14,099 nt of DNA from positions 71,889 through 85,987 of IMG/VR virus record IMGVR_UViG_3300032038_006501. One strand, given 5' to 3'. This document shows, piece after piece, positions 1-14,099 of the stretch. Position 1 is the first letter of the stretch, and each line of letters begins with the position of its first letter. The notes beneath the pieces were generated by a model. The model had not been told where the DNA came from. It searched no databases and saw only the letters and a list, made by a program, of their open reading frames with translations. The position numbers and the translations under genes are program-made. The stretch comes from a virus.

Positions 1-476
1 CTACTAAATTTACCTTACTAAAGTATGCGGGCAAGGATACAAATAAAACTCCAATTGGAGGAGCAACTTTTAATTTACTAGATACTAATGGTAATAAAGT
101 TCAATTCTATGAAATCATTCCTAATCAAAAATATCGTTTAACAACTTCAGAAGATAGCAGTTCTATGACTGATATTGTTACAGCCGCAGGAAAAACTGTT
201 GAAATTGAAGGTTTAGATGCGGATATTACTTATCAATTAAAAGAAATTAAAGCTCCGCAAGGATATGATTTATTAACTGAAACTATTGCAATTCAAGCTC
301 CAGATGATTTATCTTTAGTTGTAGAAGTTGCAAATAATACTCATAGCATTCTTCCTTCTACTGGTGAAGATGGTATTTATCTTTACTATTTAATTGGAGC
401 ATTTTTATTAGTTGGTGGAATTTTAGTTATTATTGCTTCTAAAAAAAATAAAAAAGATATGGACAAAATTGTATAA
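1..476 (+). CDS. C-terminal part (5' truncated by the window edge, reading frame starts at nt 3) of an LPXTG-anchored cell-wall surface protein with a Cna-B/SpaA-pilin-like domain
   Basis: Frame is open from nt 3 to the TAA at 474-476. Translation ends ...NNTHSILPSTGEDGIYLYYLIGAFLLVGGILVIIASKKNKKD, which is LPSTG followed by a hydrophobic segment and a K-rich tail, the classic sortase sorting signal. Upstream FTLLKYAGKD..PIGGATFNLLD...EIKAPQGYDLL resembles the Gram-positive pilin / Cna-B isopeptide-domain pattern. The track's ATG at 165 is internal. Confidence 0.75.
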   Translation, partial: TKFTLLKYAGKDTNKTPIGGATFNLLDTNGNKVQFYEIIPNQKYRLTTSEDSSSMTDIVTAAGKTVEIEGLDADITYQLKEIKAPQGYDLLTETIAIQAPDDLSLVVEVANNTHSILPSTGEDGIYLYYLIGAFLLVGGILVIIASKKNKKDMDKIV

Positions 477-537
477 TATCTCACTATAATTTTTTATATT
501 TGTTAGAGATAATTTTCATTTAAAATGCAATAATAGA

Positions 538-577
538 GAACTTAGCAACACTATTGTTGTTAAGTTCTTTTTTTTAT
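538..577 (+). terminator. Rho-independent terminator after the surface-protein gene
   Basis: GAACTTAGCAACA-CTAT-TGTTGTTAAGTTC forms a 13-bp stem with one G.T wobble and a 4-nt loop. A T8 run follows at 568-575. Confidence 0.7.
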
Positions 578-613: not shown

Positions 614-784
614 ATGATAAAACTATTAAACGTAGATACTCAATATAATATTTATGAATATTTTGTAGATTCAACAGAAGATATAGCAAATCTACCTACA
701 GATAGTCCAGGGTCAACCGCATTAGTTGCAGCTACTTCCGAGGTTTACATTTTAAACAATCAGGGTCAATGAACAATTCTTTAG
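614..784 (+). CDS. Small hypothetical protein (56 aa), intact only if the TGA at 770-772 is read as Trp
   Basis: ATG 614 preceded by AAGGGGTGA. It fills the gap between the terminator and the next gene. Translation under code 4 is MIKLLNVDTQYNIYEYFVDSTEDIANLPTDSPGSTALVAATSEVYILNNQGQWTIL. The TAG stop overlaps the SD of the downstream gene. Confidence 0.3.
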
Positions 785-799
785 AAGGAGGTATATTTT

Positions 800-1096
800 A
801 TGGATATTACAACATATGCTTTAGCTAAAAAATATACTGATTCTAAAGTTATTCAAGTCTCAGAGGGTATTGTCCCGCAAATTGGAGAAAATGGAAACTG
901 GATAATTGCGGGAGTAGATAGCGGAATTAAAGCATCTTCTGAACAAGTTGAAGTAGATGGTACAGGTAAATTAAAAGTTGATTCTACTAATGGAAATCTT
1001 TTAATAGTAGATGAAGATGGACATACTATTGCAACAATTACAGGACAACAAGAAATTTCTGATGATAATATAGACGCCTTGTTTGAAGATGATTAG
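800..1096 (+). CDS. Hypothetical protein (98 aa), paralogue of the next gene
   Basis: Strong SD GAAGGAGG 8 nt upstream of ATG 800. The N-terminus (TTYALAKKYTDSK) and C-terminus (ISDDNIDALFEDD) match motifs in the 1105-1404 product. Confidence 0.6.
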   Translation: MDITTYALAKKYTDSKVIQVSEGIVPQIGENGNWIIAGVDSGIKASSEQVEVDGTGKLKVDSTNGNLLIVDEDGHTIATITGQQEISDDNIDALFEDD

Positions 1097-1104
1097 GAGA
1101 AAAA

Positions 1105-1404
1105 ATGACACAGTATCTTAGTTATGAGGGTCTTCAAAAATATGATGAAAAACTCAAAAATTGAGTGCGGAATCAAGACTCTGTTTTACAACAATTAATT
1201 GGAAATGAATCAGTTTCAACTCAAATTACAAACGCTATCGCCGCACTTATTAATAGTGCTCCAACAGAATTTGATACTTTAAAAGAAGTTTCTGATTGAA
1301 TACAAGAACAAAAAATATTAAATACTCAAATTTCTGATAAATTAGATAAAATAGATGATATAGAAATAATCTCTTCCGAGGATATAGATTCTTTATTTAA
1401 TTAA
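1105..1404 (+). CDS. Hypothetical protein (99 aa) with a phage tail-fibre-like AP..DTL.E motif; needs TGA read as Trp (two in-frame TGA codons)
   Basis: SD AGGAGA precedes ATG 1105. Translation under code 4 is MTQYLSYEGLQKYDEKLKNW VRNQDSVLQQLIGNESVSTQITNAIAALINSAPTEFDTLKEVSDW IQEQ...IISSEDIDSLFN. The segment LINSAPTEFDTLKEV resembles the conserved tail-fibre N-terminal repeat (APxxLDTLxEL). The standard code breaks the ORF into fragments under 60 aa, so the track does not show it. Confidence 0.55.
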
Positions 1405-2793: not shown

Positions 2794-3402
2794 ATGGATA
2801 AAGTTACTATTATAGAAATTACCGAACATCCAATTGAAATTATTTCAAAAGGAGCAGGAACTAGCTATAAAAAAATTAATAATTCGTGACAAAGAGTTCA
2901 AACATGTATTAAAAATGGACATTTATCTGTAACTGAGTTTGCTCATATTAATTTTAAAATTGATGGAATTTCAAGAAGCTGTTTAGCACAATTAACTCGT
3001 CATCGTCTAATGTCTTTTTGTGTTGAATCTCAACGTTATGTCAAATATAATTTTAAAGATAATAATTGATATGTAATGCCAAAGGCTTTTAAAAAATCTA
3101 ATGCTTGAACTAGAAGATATATTTATGAAATGCGTAATGCAGCTTTAAGTTATAGACAAGCTATAGAAGATGGTATTAAACCAGAAGATGCTAGATTTCT
3201 TCTCCCAGAAGCAACAAAAACAAATTTAACTTGCGGGATGAATCTTAGAGAGTTTTTTAATTTTCTTAATTTAAGGCTTGATCCGCATGCACAATGAGAA
3301 ATTAGAGAATTGGCAGAAGAAATGTTTAATCAAGTATTAAATTATAATAATGAATGAAAAACTATTCTATCCTATTGGAAAGAAACTTGTTTTAATAAAT
3401 AA
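2794..3402 (+). CDS. thyX: Flavin-dependent thymidylate synthase ThyX (202 aa), intact only under translation table 4 (five in-frame TGA codons)
   Basis: SD GGAGAT upstream. The ThyX signature motif RHR-x7-S is present ([16 protein letters not shown]). Upstream matches include [15 protein letters not shown] (~ GHETPFEHIVFTFHV in Thermotoga ThyX). [15 protein letters not shown] aligns with T. maritima NFLNLRADSHAQWEI, and the W there is encoded by TGA. The standard-code track shows only sub-threshold fragments. Confidence 0.85.
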
Positions 3403-9163: not shown

Positions 9164-11074
9164 TTGAATAATTTTTATAAAAACGACTCAATTGAGTCAC
9201 TTACTCCACGAGAACATGTTAGACTTCGTCCAGGAATGTACGCGGGAGATACCAGTGATGCAACACAACTTGCAATAGAAATTTTGGGAAATTCTATTGA
9301 TGAGTTTAATATTGGTCATGGAGATTTAATCGAAATTTATATAAATCCCGATTGGATTGATGAACAAAATGTTATTCTAATTCGCGATCATGGTCAGGGG
9401 TTTCCGATAAATGTTCAACGAGATGATGGAGAAACAGTTCTTCAAGCTTCTTTTGATGTTATTAATACTTCTGGTAAATATCGTGATGACGGTGTGTATG
9501 AAGGAACGGCAATTGGTTTAAATGGAATTGGAGCAAAATTAACTAATTTTCTTTCTCATAAATTGAATGTAGTTTCTTTCGATGATGAAGGTAATTTTGA
9601 GTCTATTTTTTTTACAGAAGGAATTTTTGAAAAAAGAGAAACAGGAAAATTAATTCATGCTTCTGGTACAGAAGTAGCTTTTATTCCCAGTGAAGAATTT
9701 TTTACTTCACCTACAATAAATGAGAAAAAGTTAAAAGATTTTTGTGAAGATATTACTTGTTTATGTGAAGGTCTTACTATTATTTTTAATAATGAGACTA
9801 TTAAGCATGAAAATGGTATTCAAGATTTATTAATTAAACATCTTGGTAAAGAAATTGAAATTCTTAATAATCCATTATTTATCCAAGAGAAGAGAAATAA
9901 ACAAGCTATTTCATTAGGACTAACTTATACAAGTAAAGGTTCTTCTACTATTATTCCTTATGTTAATTGTGGATTAACATCATCTGGCCCGCATATTACA
10001 GCTATTAAATCAACAATTACACGTGTTTTAAATAAATGGGCAAAAGAACAAGGAATATTAAAAGCTAAAGATAAAAATTTAGATGGTTCTTCTCTTCAAG
10101 AAGGATTAATTTTAGTTGCTAACATTACAGCAGAAAATGTAGCTTATAATGCTCAAATTAAATCTACAATTACTAAAATTGATACTAGTTTTATAAATAC
10201 TATACTTGCGGAGCAGCTTGAAATTTGGCTTGATAATAATGTTGAAGATGGTACTAAAATTATTGAAAAAGCTCTTATAGCTCGTAAAGCCGCAGAAGCT
10301 GCTAAGAAAGCTAGAGAGCAAGTCAAAAATAAAGCAAATAAATCTGAAAAAAAGAAAAATATTCAACTACCTACAACTTTAACAGATTGTTGGAGCAAAG
10401 ATAGAACAAAATGTGAATTATTAATTTGCGAAGGTAAGTCAGCTGCATCTGGATTAGTAGCAGCAAGAGATAGTGAGATACAAGCAGTTTATGGTGTTAG
10501 AGGGAAAATGTTAAGCGTTTTAAAAACAGCTCCCGCAAATATTTATAAAAATAAAGAAATTAATAATTTAGTTCAAGCTCTTGGATTACCGGTTAATTCT
10601 GCGGATTGTAAATTAACATATGACGCATCTAAACTTCGTTATGGAAAAATTATAGCTTGTGCAGATGCAGATCCAGACGGTTCAGCTATTGAAAACTTAC
10701 TATTTAATATTTTATGGTATATGTGTCCAGAACTAATAATTAATGGTCATGTTTATTCAGCAGTACCACCTCTTTATAAAGTAATTACTAATAAAAATGA
10801 GTATATTTATCTTAAAGGGGATAAAGAGTTAAAAGAATGTCAACAAAATTGTACTATTAAGACGATAAATCGTTTAAAGGGACTTGGCGAAATGGACTCA
10901 ACAGAGCTTAACGAAACTCTATTAGATCCAATCACAAGACAAGTTTTACAACTTGAAGTAAAAGATTTTAAAGAAACTGATAAAATTTTTACAGATCTTT
11001 ATGGTAAAGTAGTTGAACCAAGAATTAAATTTTTACAAGAGCATGGAGAGGAAGCGAGAGCTGATTATGAATAG
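9164..11074 (+). CDS. Type II DNA topoisomerase large subunit, GyrB-like, with ATPase, transducer and Toprim domains fused (636 aa; compare the T2/T6-type fused gp39+gp60)
   Basis: TTG start with GAGAGGTG SD. N-terminus EHVRLRPGMYAGDT resembles GyrB VRKRPGMYIGDT. GHKL ATPase boxes are present: EILGNSIDE, IRDHGQGFP, GLNGIGAKLTNFLS. ARKAAEAAKKARE...LPTTLTDC resembles the GyrB transducer end. Toprim motifs ELLICEGKSAASG and CADADPDGSAI are present. Confidence 0.9.
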   Translation: MNNFYKNDSIESLTPREHVRLRPGMYAGDTSDATQLAIEILGNSIDEFNIGHGDLIEIYINPDWIDEQNVILIRDHGQGFPINVQRDDGETVLQASFDVINTSGKYRDDGVYEGTAIGLNGIGAKLTNFLSHKLNVVSFDDEGNFESIFFTEGIFEKRETGKLIHASGTEVAFIPSEEFFTSPTINEKKLKDFCEDITCLCEGLTIIFNNETIKHENGIQDLLIKHLGKEIEILNNPLFIQEKRNKQAISLGLTYTSKGSSTIIPYVNCGLTSSGPHITAIKSTITRVLNKWAKEQGILKAKDKNLDGSSLQEGLILVANITAENVAYNAQIKSTITKIDTSFINTILAEQLEIWLDNNVEDGTKIIEKALIARKAAEAAKKAREQVKNKANKSEKKKNIQLPTTLTDCWSKDRTKCELLICEGKSAASGLVAARDSEIQAVYGVRGKMLSVLKTAPANIYKNKEINNLVQALGLPVNSADCKLTYDASKLRYGKIIACADADPDGSAIENLLFNILWYMCPELIINGHVYSAVPPLYKVITNKNEYIYLKGDKELKECQQNCTIKTINRLKGLGEMDSTELNETLLDPITRQVLQLEVKDFKETDKIFTDLYGKVVEPRIKFLQEHGEEARADYE

Positions 11075-13166
11075 TATTAATGTTATTTCAGAGATTTCTC
11101 AAAACTTTCTTGATTCATCTCTTGAAACAAATATGAATAGAGCTTTTCCGAATATTTTAGACGGTTTAAAACCCGGTCAACGCGCTTGTATTTGGGAAAT
11201 GTATATAAAGAAATATACAAGCAAAAAACCTCATGTAAAATCTGCTAAAGTAAGTGGTGGTGTTATTGCTGATTTATGGCCACACTCTGATGTAGCTATT
11301 TATGAAACTTTTGCTCGTATGTCTCAACCATTTATTAATAATATTCCTGAAATTGATTGGCATGGAGCAAATGGTAATCCTATTCTTGGTGGAGATGCTT
11401 TAGCAAATCAACGTTATACCGAATGTCGTTTAGCAGCTATTACAGAAGATGGTATGCTTCAAGGAATTAATAAAAATAATGTAGATATGATTCCTAACTT
11501 TAGTGAAGATGCTAAATGGCCTAAGGTATTACCAGCAATCTTTCCTCGTCTTCTTGTTAACGGAGCACAAGGAATTGGAGTATCTTTATCAAATACTTGG
11601 CTTTGTCATAATTTTACCGAAACAGCCCAATTAATTTTTGATTATATCCGCACAGGAATTGTGGATAATGATAATTATTATCCTGATTTCCCAACAGGTG
11701 GAATTATAGTAAATAAAAAAGATTTACCAGAAATTAATAAAACTGGTAAAGGTAAAGTTATTATTGAAAGTAAATATACTATTAATGGAAATGAAATTAA
11801 TTTTTCAGAACTTCCTTATCAAGTATATATTGAACCAGTAATTGATGAAATTAAAAAAGGAATCCAAGAGGGTAAGATTACTGGAATTCAAGAAATTTAT
11901 AATAAATCTGATAAAAATAGAATTCTTTTAACTATTGAGTGTGAAAATAATTATAGTCCAGAACAAGTAGTTCTTCAATTATTTGAAAGCACTAATCTTC
12001 GTAAACAATATAATGCTAATCAAAATGGTATTATTAGTAAAACTCCAATTATGATTACTCTTGAGCAATATCTTCAAGAATATGTTAAACATAATCTTAA
12101 TTGTATTAAAAGAGAATTTCAATATGATTTAAACGAAACAAGTGAAAAAATTGAAATTCTTGAAGGATTAGTAAAAGCTTTAGAAGATATTGATAATATT
12201 ATTCAAACAATTAAACAGAGTAAAAATACTTCAGAAGCTAAAATTAATTTAATTAATAGATTCAATTCTACAGAATTACAAGCAGATGCAATTCTTAAAA
12301 TGAGACTTAGTAAATTAGCAAATATGGAAAAAATTGCTATTAATAATGAGCTCCAAGAGAAAAAGGAATTTGCATTATATTGTGCGGGAATTGTTGAATC
12401 AACAGATAAACAAAAAGAAGTTCTAATTAATAGATTAGAAGAACTTGTTAAAAAATATGGAGACAAGCGCCGCACACAAGTAATTCAAAAAGAAATTGCT
12501 TCTAAAGATAAGAAGAAAAAAGAAAAAGTTATTAAAGATGTAGTTATTACTTATGATGAAAAAGGTTATTTACAAAATATTCCTATTTCTATGTATAAGA
12601 AAATTGGGACTAAAGTAAATGTCCTTAAAATGAAGTCGAATGAATTATTTTTACTTTTCTCTTCTCTTGGACGAATTTTTAAAGTAAGAGCAGAAGAGAT
12701 TAAAGAATGCGGGAATCGAGATAAAGGTCAGGCAGTTGGAACTATTTTAAGCCTCGCCCCGCAAGAAAAGATTCTAAATATTTTTAATATGGGAATAGAT
12801 AAAAAACATCCTTATATTATTTTCTTTACTAAATATGGTTTAATAAAAAAGACTAATAAAGATATTTGGATTACAACAACTCAAAATAAAAAGGGAATGA
12901 AAGGAATTTCTCTTAGAGAAAATGATTCTATTGTAGGAGTTTTTGAAAGCAATGGAGATTTAGCGATTGTTAAAAGTAAAACTCATATTATTAAATTTGA
13001 AGTAGAATTTATTAGAGCTACTAAAAATGGATATGGAGTAAAAGCTATTTCTCTTGATGAAGATGATATAGTAGAAAGTGTAGAGATTATTCCTAAAAAT
13101 TCTATTAAATATAATAATATTAAAGTTCAAAGTCATGGTGGCAGAGGAGTTCTTATTCATGTCTAG
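11067..13166 (+). CDS. Type II DNA topoisomerase subunit, GyrA/ParC-like (T4 gp52-like), with a truncated beta-pinwheel C-terminal domain (699 aa)
   Basis: ATG 11067 overlaps the upstream stop (ATGAATAG). This start is preferred over the track's TTG at 11013 because it leaves a 23-aa lead before NRAFPNILDGLKPGQR (compare T4 gp52 NRAIPNMIDGFKPVQR). The catalytic Tyr context NQRYTECRL resembles GyrA RYTE. C-terminal GyrA-box-like blades are present: KGQAVGTILSL..., KGMKGISLREND..., NGYGVKAISLDEDD. Confidence 0.88.
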   Translation: MNSINVISEISQNFLDSSLETNMNRAFPNILDGLKPGQRACIWEMYIKKYTSKKPHVKSAKVSGGVIADLWPHSDVAIYETFARMSQPFINNIPEIDWHGANGNPILGGDALANQRYTECRLAAITEDGMLQGINKNNVDMIPNFSEDAKWPKVLPAIFPRLLVNGAQGIGVSLSNTWLCHNFTETAQLIFDYIRTGIVDNDNYYPDFPTGGIIVNKKDLPEINKTGKGKVIIESKYTINGNEINFSELPYQVYIEPVIDEIKKGIQEGKITGIQEIYNKSDKNRILLTIECENNYSPEQVVLQLFESTNLRKQYNANQNGIISKTPIMITLEQYLQEYVKHNLNCIKREFQYDLNETSEKIEILEGLVKALEDIDNIIQTIKQSKNTSEAKINLINRFNSTELQADAILKMRLSKLANMEKIAINNELQEKKEFALYCAGIVESTDKQKEVLINRLEELVKKYGDKRRTQVIQKEIASKDKKKKEKVIKDVVITYDEKGYLQNIPISMYKKIGTKVNVLKMKSNELFLLFSSLGRIFKVRAEEIKECGNRDKGQAVGTILSLAPQEKILNIFNMGIDKKHPYIIFFTKYGLIKKTNKDIWITTTQNKKGMKGISLRENDSIVGVFESNGDLAIVKSKTHIIKFEVEFIRATKNGYGVKAISLDEDDIVESVEIIPKNSIKYNNIKVQSHGGRGVLIHV

Positions 13167-14099
13167 TTTATATCCAGAATCTTGGCAAATTCCACCTATG
13201 AAATATTGTTCTAAAGCATCTGATAAAGCCGCAAGACAAGCTTTCGAATCAGGTGATTTTATCATGCAAGAAAAATATGACGGAGCTTTATATCAATTAG
13301 AGAAAACTGATTCTGGATATATTTATTTATTTTCTAGAACAAAATCTCGTAAAACAGGAGAGCTTGTAGAAAAGTCTGATAACTTTCCTCATATTAAGAA
13401 ATGGGCTGAATGGGCTATTCCAAATGGAACTATTCTTGTAGGTGAAATTTATGTAGAAGGTGGACATTCTAATGATGTGACTAAATTATCTGGATGTTTA
13501 CCTCAAAATGCAGTTAAACGTCAGTTTGATTCAAATGAATATGGCGGTCCTGTAAAATATAAAGTATTTGATATTATTAGATTTGCAGGAGAAGATATTC
13601 AAAATAAACCGACTATTGAAAGAATTGATAATTATTTAAATAATACTAGTTTAGATTATTCTTTTTCTGATAGATATGTACAAAGAGTAACTACTTATTA
13701 TGATAATTTTGAAGAACGACTTCAACAAATTTTTAAAAATGGTGGAGAAGGTGCTGTTTTTAAAAATAAAAATTGTCCATATCGTGCGGGAAAACGCTCA
13801 ACTGTATCTCAGGCTTTTAAGTGGAAACAACATTTAGATTCTATTGATTTAATTTGTACAGAATTAATAGACCCAGAAGATTATTATACGGGAAAAGAAA
13901 TTGAAAGTTGGCCTTATTGGATGGAACATTCAAAAACAATTAATAAAGAAAATTTATGGTATCCAATATATGGCTTATATTATGAAAAATATAAAAAACG
14001 CCCGCATGTATATAAACCAGTAACAAAGCCAGCGTATTTTGGTTGGAAAAATGCTATGGCTCTTGGATGCTTTAATAAAAAAGGAGCAATTGTTCATGT
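13159..14099 (+). CDS. ATP-dependent DNA ligase, 3' truncated by the window end (313 codons visible)
   Basis: ATG 13159 overlaps the topoisomerase stop (ATGTCTAG). Motif I is KYDGAL (K-x-D-G). Motif III is LVGEIYV. Motif IV is EGAVFK, followed by CPYRAGKRS. Motif V is AFKWK. The long IV-V spacing with GKRS matches T7-type DNA ligases rather than Rnl1. Confidence 0.8.
   Translation, partial: MSSLYPESWQIPPMKYCSKASDKAARQAFESGDFIMQEKYDGALYQLEKTDSGYIYLFSRTKSRKTGELVEKSDNFPHIKKWAEWAIPNGTILVGEIYVEGGHSNDVTKLSGCLPQNAVKRQFDSNEYGGPVKYKVFDIIRFAGEDIQNKPTIERIDNYLNNTSLDYSFSDRYVQRVTTYYDNFEERLQQIFKNGGEGAVFKNKNCPYRAGKRSTVSQAFKWKQHLDSIDLICTELIDPEDYYTGKEIESWPYWMEHSKTINKENLWYPIYGLYYEKYKKRPHVYKPVTKPAYFGWKNAMALGCFNKKGAIVH

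What the first reader, a model, noticed from the sequence alone, without database searches (positions are those of the whole stretch)
1..577. Sortase-substrate (LPSTG) pilin-like surface protein at the edge of a code-4 phage-like region
The LPXTG motif, hydrophobic segment and K-rich tail are a cell-wall sorting signal that requires a sortase and peptidoglycan. Known TGA-to-Trp bacteria (Mollicutes) have no cell wall. Three readings are possible. (a) The element infects or resides in a walled Firmicute and recodes TGA itself. (b) The gene is a host gene or moron at a prophage boundary; it has its own strong terminator and no TGA. (c) It is a phage structural protein with Ig-like domains that has captured a sorting signal. 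Each has implications for host assignment.
Basis: partly seen in the sequence, partly recalled or inferred. Interest (0 to 1): 0.55.

Follow-up and report, generated by a model that had tools for sequence, protein, structure and literature searches.

The report
Phage-encoded pilin with its own sortase
The window starts inside a gene for a Gram-positive-type pilus subunit that belongs to a large rumen phage which reads TGA as tryptophan and also carries its own pilus-assembling sortase, so the phage appears able to build pili on the wall of a normal-code, walled host.

Summary
Window 3-476 (+) encodes the last 157 residues of a protein with a SpaA/CnaB domain, LPSTG, a hydrophobic segment and a basic tail, followed by a strong terminator.

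Recovering the parent contig changes the interpretation:
- The full gene is a 602-aa pilin with a signal peptide. It has four in-frame TGA codons, one at a Trp column invariant in 30 homologues.
- Its codon usage matches the phage.
- It lies inside the phage genome, between tail-fibre genes with a 24-tRNA array (including tRNA-UCA) and small fibre-like genes.
- About 45 homologues (36-94% identity) exist. Every informative context I inspected is a large phage, including a relative with tRNA-CUA that uses TGA as a stop.
- The same contig encodes a class C sortase 25 kb upstream, with 3 TGA and 0 TGG.
- Trp codons are bimodal. Replication genes have 0 TGA in 37 Trp codons despite 87% A-ending bias, so the host reads TGA as stop.

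Reading (b) is refuted. Reading (c) is largely unsupported.

Most likely this is a late-expressed sortase-pilin module that the phage uses to assemble or anchor pili on an infected walled Bacillota cell. The biological purpose is unknown. I found no such phage system described.

The parts
3..476 (+). 3' part (last 157 codons plus TAA) of a 602-codon pilin gene. The first 445 codons lie upstream of the window (L002 10001-11333).
   Evidence: Full protein is P0002.
33..329 (+). C-terminal SpaA/CnaB-type Ig-like domain (domain 4 of the pilin).
   Evidence: PF17802 E 1.6e-12. AF2 pLDDT above 90 here. Matches the C domains of solved pilins.
21..23 (+). Codon of Lys452 (TLLKY), the predicted intramolecular isopeptide lysine of domain 4.
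   Evidence: Invariant in 30 homologues. The isopeptide role is inferred from the CnaB family; bond formation was not tested.
237..266 (+). E-box-like motif LKEIKAPQGY, with Glu526 at nt 243-245.
   Evidence: Y522, E526, A529, P530, G532 and Y533 are invariant.
333..335 (+). Codon of Asn556 (VEVAN), the predicted isopeptide partner of Lys452.
   Evidence: Invariant. The role is inferred.
351..365 (+). LPSTG sortase recognition motif.
   Evidence: L562, P563, T565 and G566 are invariant.
375..437 (+). Hydrophobic membrane-retention segment IYLYYLIGAFLLVGGILVIIA.
   Evidence: Predicted helix 567-601.
438..473 (+). Positively charged tail SKKNKKDMDKIV.
535..577 (+). Intrinsic terminator closing the pilin gene. 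A second terminator-like hairpin lies just upstream of the gene at L002 9940-9968.
614..1404 (+). Three small downstream genes (56, 98 and 99 aa). Two contain in-frame TGA. The 99-aa product matches tail-fibre PHROGs.
2794..3402 (+). thyX with 5 TGA and 1 TGG, an example of the TGA-using gene class.
9164..14099 (+). GyrB-like, GyrA-like and ATP-dependent ligase-like genes. Together they have 0 TGA and 19 TGG, so they are compatible with the standard code (early class).

Best explanation
The window begins inside the gene for a phage-encoded, sortase-dependent pilin. The phage is about 148-150 kb, AT-rich (29% GC), and probably from the rumen. It reads TGA as Trp by means of its own tRNA(UCA).

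Shown:
1. The full protein has a signal peptide, a beta-grasp/MucBP-like N-terminal domain, three pilin domains and an LPSTG sorting signal.
2. The gene is native to the phage (TGA codons, composition, conserved position).
3. The same contig encodes a class C (pilus-polymerising) sortase. It has an intact His-Cys-Arg triad and membrane anchors at both the N and C termini.
4. Both genes fall in the TGA-using gene class, together with the tail fibres. The replication genes avoid TGA completely.

Inferred:
1. The host is a standard-code, peptidoglycan-walled Bacillota, probably a Clostridia member.
2. Early genes are translated with the host code.
3. Once the phage tRNA(UCA) is active, the pilin and sortase are made.
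4. The pilin is exported by Sec and held in the membrane by its C-terminal segment.
5. The phage sortase cleaves LPST|G.
6. The sortase then joins Thr565 either to the invariant linker lysine (K306, ITEK) of another pilin, giving polymerisation, or to the wall precursor, possibly with the host housekeeping sortase.
7. The infected cell therefore displays phage-made fibres tipped with an adhesin-like domain.

The purpose is not established. My ranking of possible roles:
1. Adhesion or aggregation that keeps the infected cell next to new hosts or substrate.
2. Shielding of receptors, as superinfection exclusion or as protection of progeny from cell debris.
For: Gene and protein:
- Full gene and signal peptide.
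- Pfam and NCBIfam domains above their cut-offs.
- Profile hits to RrgB and other pilins, E 1e-17 to 1e-23.
- AF2 mean pLDDT 82.9. The top 50 Foldseek PDB hits are all sortase-assembled pilins.
- Invariant Lys/Asn/Glu residues and invariant LPxTG.

The gene is native to the phage:
- 4 TGA and 1 TGG.
- The invariant Trp column W214 is TGA in this lineage and TGG in five others.
- GC3 0.106, r = 0.93 with the rest of the phage.

Phage context:
- Fibre proteins: 1230-aa collagen-like tail fibre, 759-aa fibre and Pfam/PHROG head-fibre and tail hits; adenine-specific DGR on the 759-aa fibre gene.
- 24-25 tRNAs plus tRNA(UCA).
- IMG/VR viral contigs.
- A replication module.

Sortase:
- PF04203, E 1.4e-25.
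- NF033745 class_C_sortase, 176.8 bits against a cut-off of 160.
- It is on the window's own contig at 44,775-45,578.
- H151, C215 and R224 are invariant.
- Class C structures are the best PDB matches.
- 3 TGA and 0 TGG.

Host code and wall:
- 0 of 37 TGA in the TGG-only genes against an 87% A-ending bias, P about 1e-33. The TGA fraction is 0.91 in the other class. Permutation p <= 1e-5.
- All 31 stops are TAA or TAG.
- The relative L005 ends its pilin gene with TGA, carries tRNA(CUA), and has an ELLD+SH3_3 endolysin and a PG_binding_1 protein next to the pilin.
- Shine-Dalgarno cores precede 23 of 30 genes.

This matches the published model of recoded phages that infect standard-code hosts (10.1101/2021.08.26.457843).
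Against: - No canonical YPKN pilin motif. The polymerising lysine (K306) is inferred only from invariance and position.
- The SpaH/EbpB major-pilin model scores below its cut-off, 77.5 against 95.
- The sortase lid motif is not canonical (LDPQF).
- Pilin and sortase are 25 kb apart, not in an operon. Their pairing rests on co-occurrence, and no other sorting-signal protein was found in the roughly 75 kb scanned.
- The sortase was confirmed only in the window's lineage. The 107-kb IMG/VR relative with a 46%-identical pilin did not appear in the sortase scan.
- No endolysin was found in the parts of this lineage I could read.
- Only about half of the genome was inspected, so an integrase cannot be excluded.
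- The host is not identified. The only hints are short contigs binned in Ruminococcus and Clostridiales MAGs and Clostridia-dominated sortase neighbours.
- Expression timing is inferred from codon content, not measured.
Confidence: 0.68

Rival explanations
1. Lysogenic-conversion adhesin. The phage is temperate, and the pilin (with the sortase) is expressed from the prophage to help the host colonise. This would resemble SasX on the phiSPbeta-like prophage of S. aureus.
For: Prophage-borne LPXTG surface proteins exist (SasX; PMC7047976 and PMC6066798, found). The pilin is a monocistronic unit bracketed by terminators, which is moron-like. Only about half of the genome was seen.
Against: Four TGA codons in the pilin and three in the sortase would block translation in a standard-code lysogen unless the suppressor tRNA is also expressed. 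The genome has a virulent-type make-up: its own PolIII alpha, DnaB, primase, topoisomerase II and ligase. No integrase was seen in about 75 kb. Close homologues in 185,579 species genomes occur only on two short contigs, not in integrated prophages. The gene has a conserved position in phages at 36-94% identity, not a sporadic distribution.
Confidence: 0.15
2. Monomeric wall-anchored shield. The protein is not polymerised. It is simply anchored to peptidoglycan as a surface coat that masks the phage receptor, either as superinfection exclusion or to protect progeny from cell debris. The phage sortase serves only to anchor it.
For: There is no canonical YPKN motif. This lineage has LPSTGE(D/N)G rather than the family's pilin-like LPSTGG. 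The SpaH/EbpB major-pilin model scores below its cut-off.
Against: The sortase is class C by a curated cut-off and by its nearest solved structures, and class C enzymes are pilus polymerases. K306 in the domain linker is invariant in 30 sequences. The three-domain architecture matches shaft pilins.
Confidence: 0.2
3. Virion structural protein. An Ig-like fibre or decoration protein of the particle happens to carry a sorting signal.
For: The gene sits between fibre-like genes on both sides. Ig-like domains are common on virions.
Against: It has a cleavable Sec signal peptide and a membrane-retention signal, both conserved across the family. This places the protein outside the membrane, whereas virions assemble in the cytoplasm. 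It has no PHROG match. It is homologous to cellular pilins over about 480-520 aligned columns. A partner sortase is also membrane-anchored.
Confidence: 0.04
4. Host-code explanation. The element lives in a code-4 bacterium (a Mollicutes relative) and simply uses its host's code.
For: TGA is Trp. The genome has 29% GC, like Mollicutes.
Against: There are 0 TGA in 37 Trp codons of the replication-type genes despite an 87% A-ending bias. The phage has its own tRNA(UCA) as well as tRNA-Trp(CCA). Sister phages use TGA as a stop or carry tRNA(CUA). A conserved sortase substrate and sortase need a wall. An endolysin and a PG-binding protein occur in a relative.
Confidence: 0.03
5. Host gene at a prophage boundary, or a chimeric assembly.
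For: The in-window fragment has no TGA and has its own terminator.
Against: The full gene has 4 TGA. The same gene order occurs in five contigs from five different samples, with the 300-900 junction collinear at 96% identity in four of them. Phage genes lie on both sides. Codon usage is native.
Confidence: 0.01

Closest known systems
Sortase-assembled pili of Gram-positive bacteria: shaft and basal pilins such as RrgB, SpaA/SpaD, BcpA, EbpB/EbpC, LrpA and CppA, each with a class C sortase.
   Same: - Signal peptide.
- Tandem Ig-like domains with conserved Lys/Asn/Glu positions.
- E-box.
- LPXTG sorting signal.
- Class C sortase with a His-Cys-Arg triad and a C-terminal membrane anchor.
- A bacterial homologue at 30% identity sits in a canonical operon of VWA tip pilin, pilin and sortase.
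   Different: - Encoded by a large phage, not by a cellular pilus islet.
- Pilin and sortase are 25 kb apart.
- No tip or basal pilin was found.
- There is an extra beta-grasp/MucBP-like N-terminal domain.
- No YPKN motif; the linker is the invariant ITEK-AxYP.
- Both genes contain in-frame TGA codons.
Stop-codon-recoded gut and rumen phages, especially the 'Agate' clade of Borges et al. (10.1101/2021.08.26.457843).
   Same: - Genome of about 127-154 kb, with cattle among the sources.
- TGA read as Trp with a phage suppressor tRNA.
- Recoding in structural genes and homing endonucleases but not in replication genes.
- Standard-code and TAG-recoded relatives within one clade (compared).
   Different: - Clade membership was not tested, because I could not obtain a terminase.
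- That paper does not mention pilins, sortases or cell-wall anchors; each of the terms 'pilin', 'sortase', 'cell wall', 'anchor' and 'surface' has zero occurrences.
Prophage-encoded LPXTG surface protein SasX/SesI of staphylococci.
   Same: A sortase substrate carried by a large phage genome that changes the host surface (PMC7047976, PMC6066798).
   Different: - SasX is a single non-pilin protein on a temperate phage.
- It relies on host sortase A and uses the standard code.
- Here the protein is a pilin homologue with a phage-borne class C sortase in a virulent-type recoded genome.
- Sequence similarity to SasX was not tested.
Phage surface-modifying exclusion proteins such as T5 Llp and TP-J34 Ltp (lipoproteins that mask receptors). 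Recalled from my own knowledge.
   Same: A phage-encoded, exported protein fixed to the host envelope during infection.
   Different: - Different anchoring chemistry: lipid rather than a sortase-made peptide bond.
- Unrelated folds.
- An exclusion role here is only a hypothesis.

Membership tests
Sortase-dependent Gram-positive pilin (isopeptide-forming fimbrial protein) | N-terminal Sec signal peptide | tested here: met
   MKTKKWIVIMAFLWLTLITGGVIHPAYA|EE. It has n-, h- and c-regions and an AxA site, conserved across the family. No dedicated predictor was available.
Sortase-dependent Gram-positive pilin (isopeptide-forming fimbrial protein) | C-terminal sorting signal: LPXTG, hydrophobic segment, basic tail | tested here: met
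   PF00746 26 bits against 20. TIGR01167 25.4 against 15.9. LPxTG invariant in 30 sequences.
Sortase-dependent Gram-positive pilin (isopeptide-forming fimbrial protein) | CnaA/CnaB-type domains with conserved isopeptide Lys, Asn and Glu/Asp | tested here: met
   PF17802 and PF16569. TIGR04226 56.9 bits against 30. Invariant K150/N300, K314/N426 and K452/E526/N556. Actual bond formation is not testable here.
Sortase-dependent Gram-positive pilin (isopeptide-forming fimbrial protein) | Pilin motif lysine (canonical WxxxVxVYPK) | tested here: inconclusive
   No YPK. The invariant K306 in NIDITEK-AxYP lies at the same domain junction, and it aligns with a Lys of a S. sanguinis surface protein (PDB 9uvr).
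Sortase-dependent Gram-positive pilin (isopeptide-forming fimbrial protein) | E-box (YxLxETxAPxGY) | tested here: met
   YQLKEIKAPQGY. Y522, E526, A529, P530, G532 and Y533 are invariant.
Sortase-dependent Gram-positive pilin (isopeptide-forming fimbrial protein) | Overall fold of shaft or basal pilins | tested here: met
   The top 50 Foldseek PDB hits are all pilins, E down to 2e-20.
Sortase-dependent Gram-positive pilin (isopeptide-forming fimbrial protein) | Cognate class C sortase in the same genome | tested here: met
   P0213 lies on the same contig, 25 kb upstream.
Sortase-dependent Gram-positive pilin (isopeptide-forming fimbrial protein) | Covalent polymerisation into fibres | not testable with these tools
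   Needs biochemistry or electron microscopy.
NCBIfam NF033902 SpaH/EbpB family LPXTG-anchored major pilin | Score at or above the curated cut-off | tested here: not met
   77.5 bits against 95. I therefore do not file the protein in this subfamily.
Class C sortase | Curated model cut-off and catalytic His-Cys-Arg | tested here: met
   NF033745 176.8 bits against 160. H151 (GHSG), C215 (TCTPYG) and R224 (NSHR) are invariant. Class C structures are the best PDB hits.
Class C sortase | C-terminal membrane anchor and lid (DP[FWY]) | tested here: inconclusive
   A C-terminal hydrophobic segment is present (YLYLITLIVIIIFLIW). The lid region reads LDPQF, which is not canonical.
TGA-to-Trp recoded phage infecting a standard-code host (Borges et al.) | In-frame TGA at conserved Trp positions, and no TGA stops | tested here: met
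   The W214 column. 31 of 31 genes stop with TAA or TAG.
TGA-to-Trp recoded phage infecting a standard-code host (Borges et al.) | Phage-encoded TGA suppressor tRNA | tested here: met
   tRNA(UCA) at L002 3698-3793, with A1-U72 and G73 like the phage tRNA-Trp. Charging with Trp is inferred.
TGA-to-Trp recoded phage infecting a standard-code host (Borges et al.) | Recoding confined to part of the genes, with replication genes in standard code | tested here: met
TGA-to-Trp recoded phage infecting a standard-code host (Borges et al.) | Placement in the Agate clade by terminase phylogeny | not tested
   I could not reach a terminase gene with the allowed look-ups.
Prophage moron or lysogenic-conversion surface protein (SasX-like) | Temperate phage (integrase, att, integrated copies) | tested here: inconclusive
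   None found in about 75 kb. No integrated copies among the GTDB species genomes. About half of the genome was not seen.

The most novel reading that the evidence does not exclude
A clade of large, mostly stop-codon-recoded rumen and gut phages carries a conserved sortase-substrate pilin; at least the window's lineage also carries its own class C sortase, making a self-contained, late-gated pilin module. These phages use it to build phage-encoded pili on the wall of the infected, soon-to-lyse Gram-positive cell. This would be a previously unrecognised kind of phage-directed host-surface remodelling. Possible roles include tethering the infected cell to fresh hosts or feed particles, or cloaking receptor-bearing debris.
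Probability: 0.45. Interest if true: 0.8.

Novelty: new variant of a known kind. Interest (0 to 1): 0.65.

Why it matters
- It resolves the apparent contradiction of a cell-wall sorting signal in a 'code-4' sequence. The code belongs to the phage, not the host. This fixes the host as a walled, sortase-competent bacterium that uses the standard code, which is useful for host assignment of recoded phages.
- Sortase-dependent pili are regarded as cellular colonisation organelles. A phage that brings both the polymerase and the subunit, and gates them with recoded stop codons, would mean that phages remodel the Gram-positive surface late in infection. This could affect aggregation, adhesion to feed particles and phage spread in the rumen.
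- The pilin and sortase pair is compact and directly testable in vitro.

Tried and rejected
- No parent in GenBank phages. Megablast of the whole window found nothing. Distant blastn of the GC-rich island also found nothing.
- An exact-match scan of IMG/VR with a window 44-mer found nothing. A 48-mer from the 94% relative found one contig.
- Searching with only the in-window 157 aa gave one homologue. The full-length protein was needed to see the family.
- A crude six-frame ORF-coverage comparison of codes 4, 11 and 15 was uninformative in this AT-rich DNA. I replaced it with per-gene Trp-codon counts.
- ThyX alignment to PDB did not settle the amino acid at TGA, because the best solved relatives differ at those columns. 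I used the pilin W214 column instead.
- I considered that the long-variable-arm tRNA(UCA) inserts Ser or Sec, since ARAGORN and Rfam call it Sec-like. A1-U72 with G73 matches the phage tRNA-Trp, and TGA sits at an invariant Trp, so I favour Trp. This remains unproven.
- Walking about 30 kb left and 10 kb right in IMG/VR relatives found no endolysin or terminase.
- NCBI-sourced homologues carried no organism names. The organism of the bacterial operon L007 could not be determined.
- Searching the paper library for the phrases 'phage-encoded sortase', 'phage encoded sortase', 'sortase encoded by', 'viral sortase' or 'phage sortase' (4 papers, none about a phage enzyme), and for papers combining at least four of rumen, virome, sortase, pilin and 'auxiliary metabolic' (no papers), found nothing relevant.
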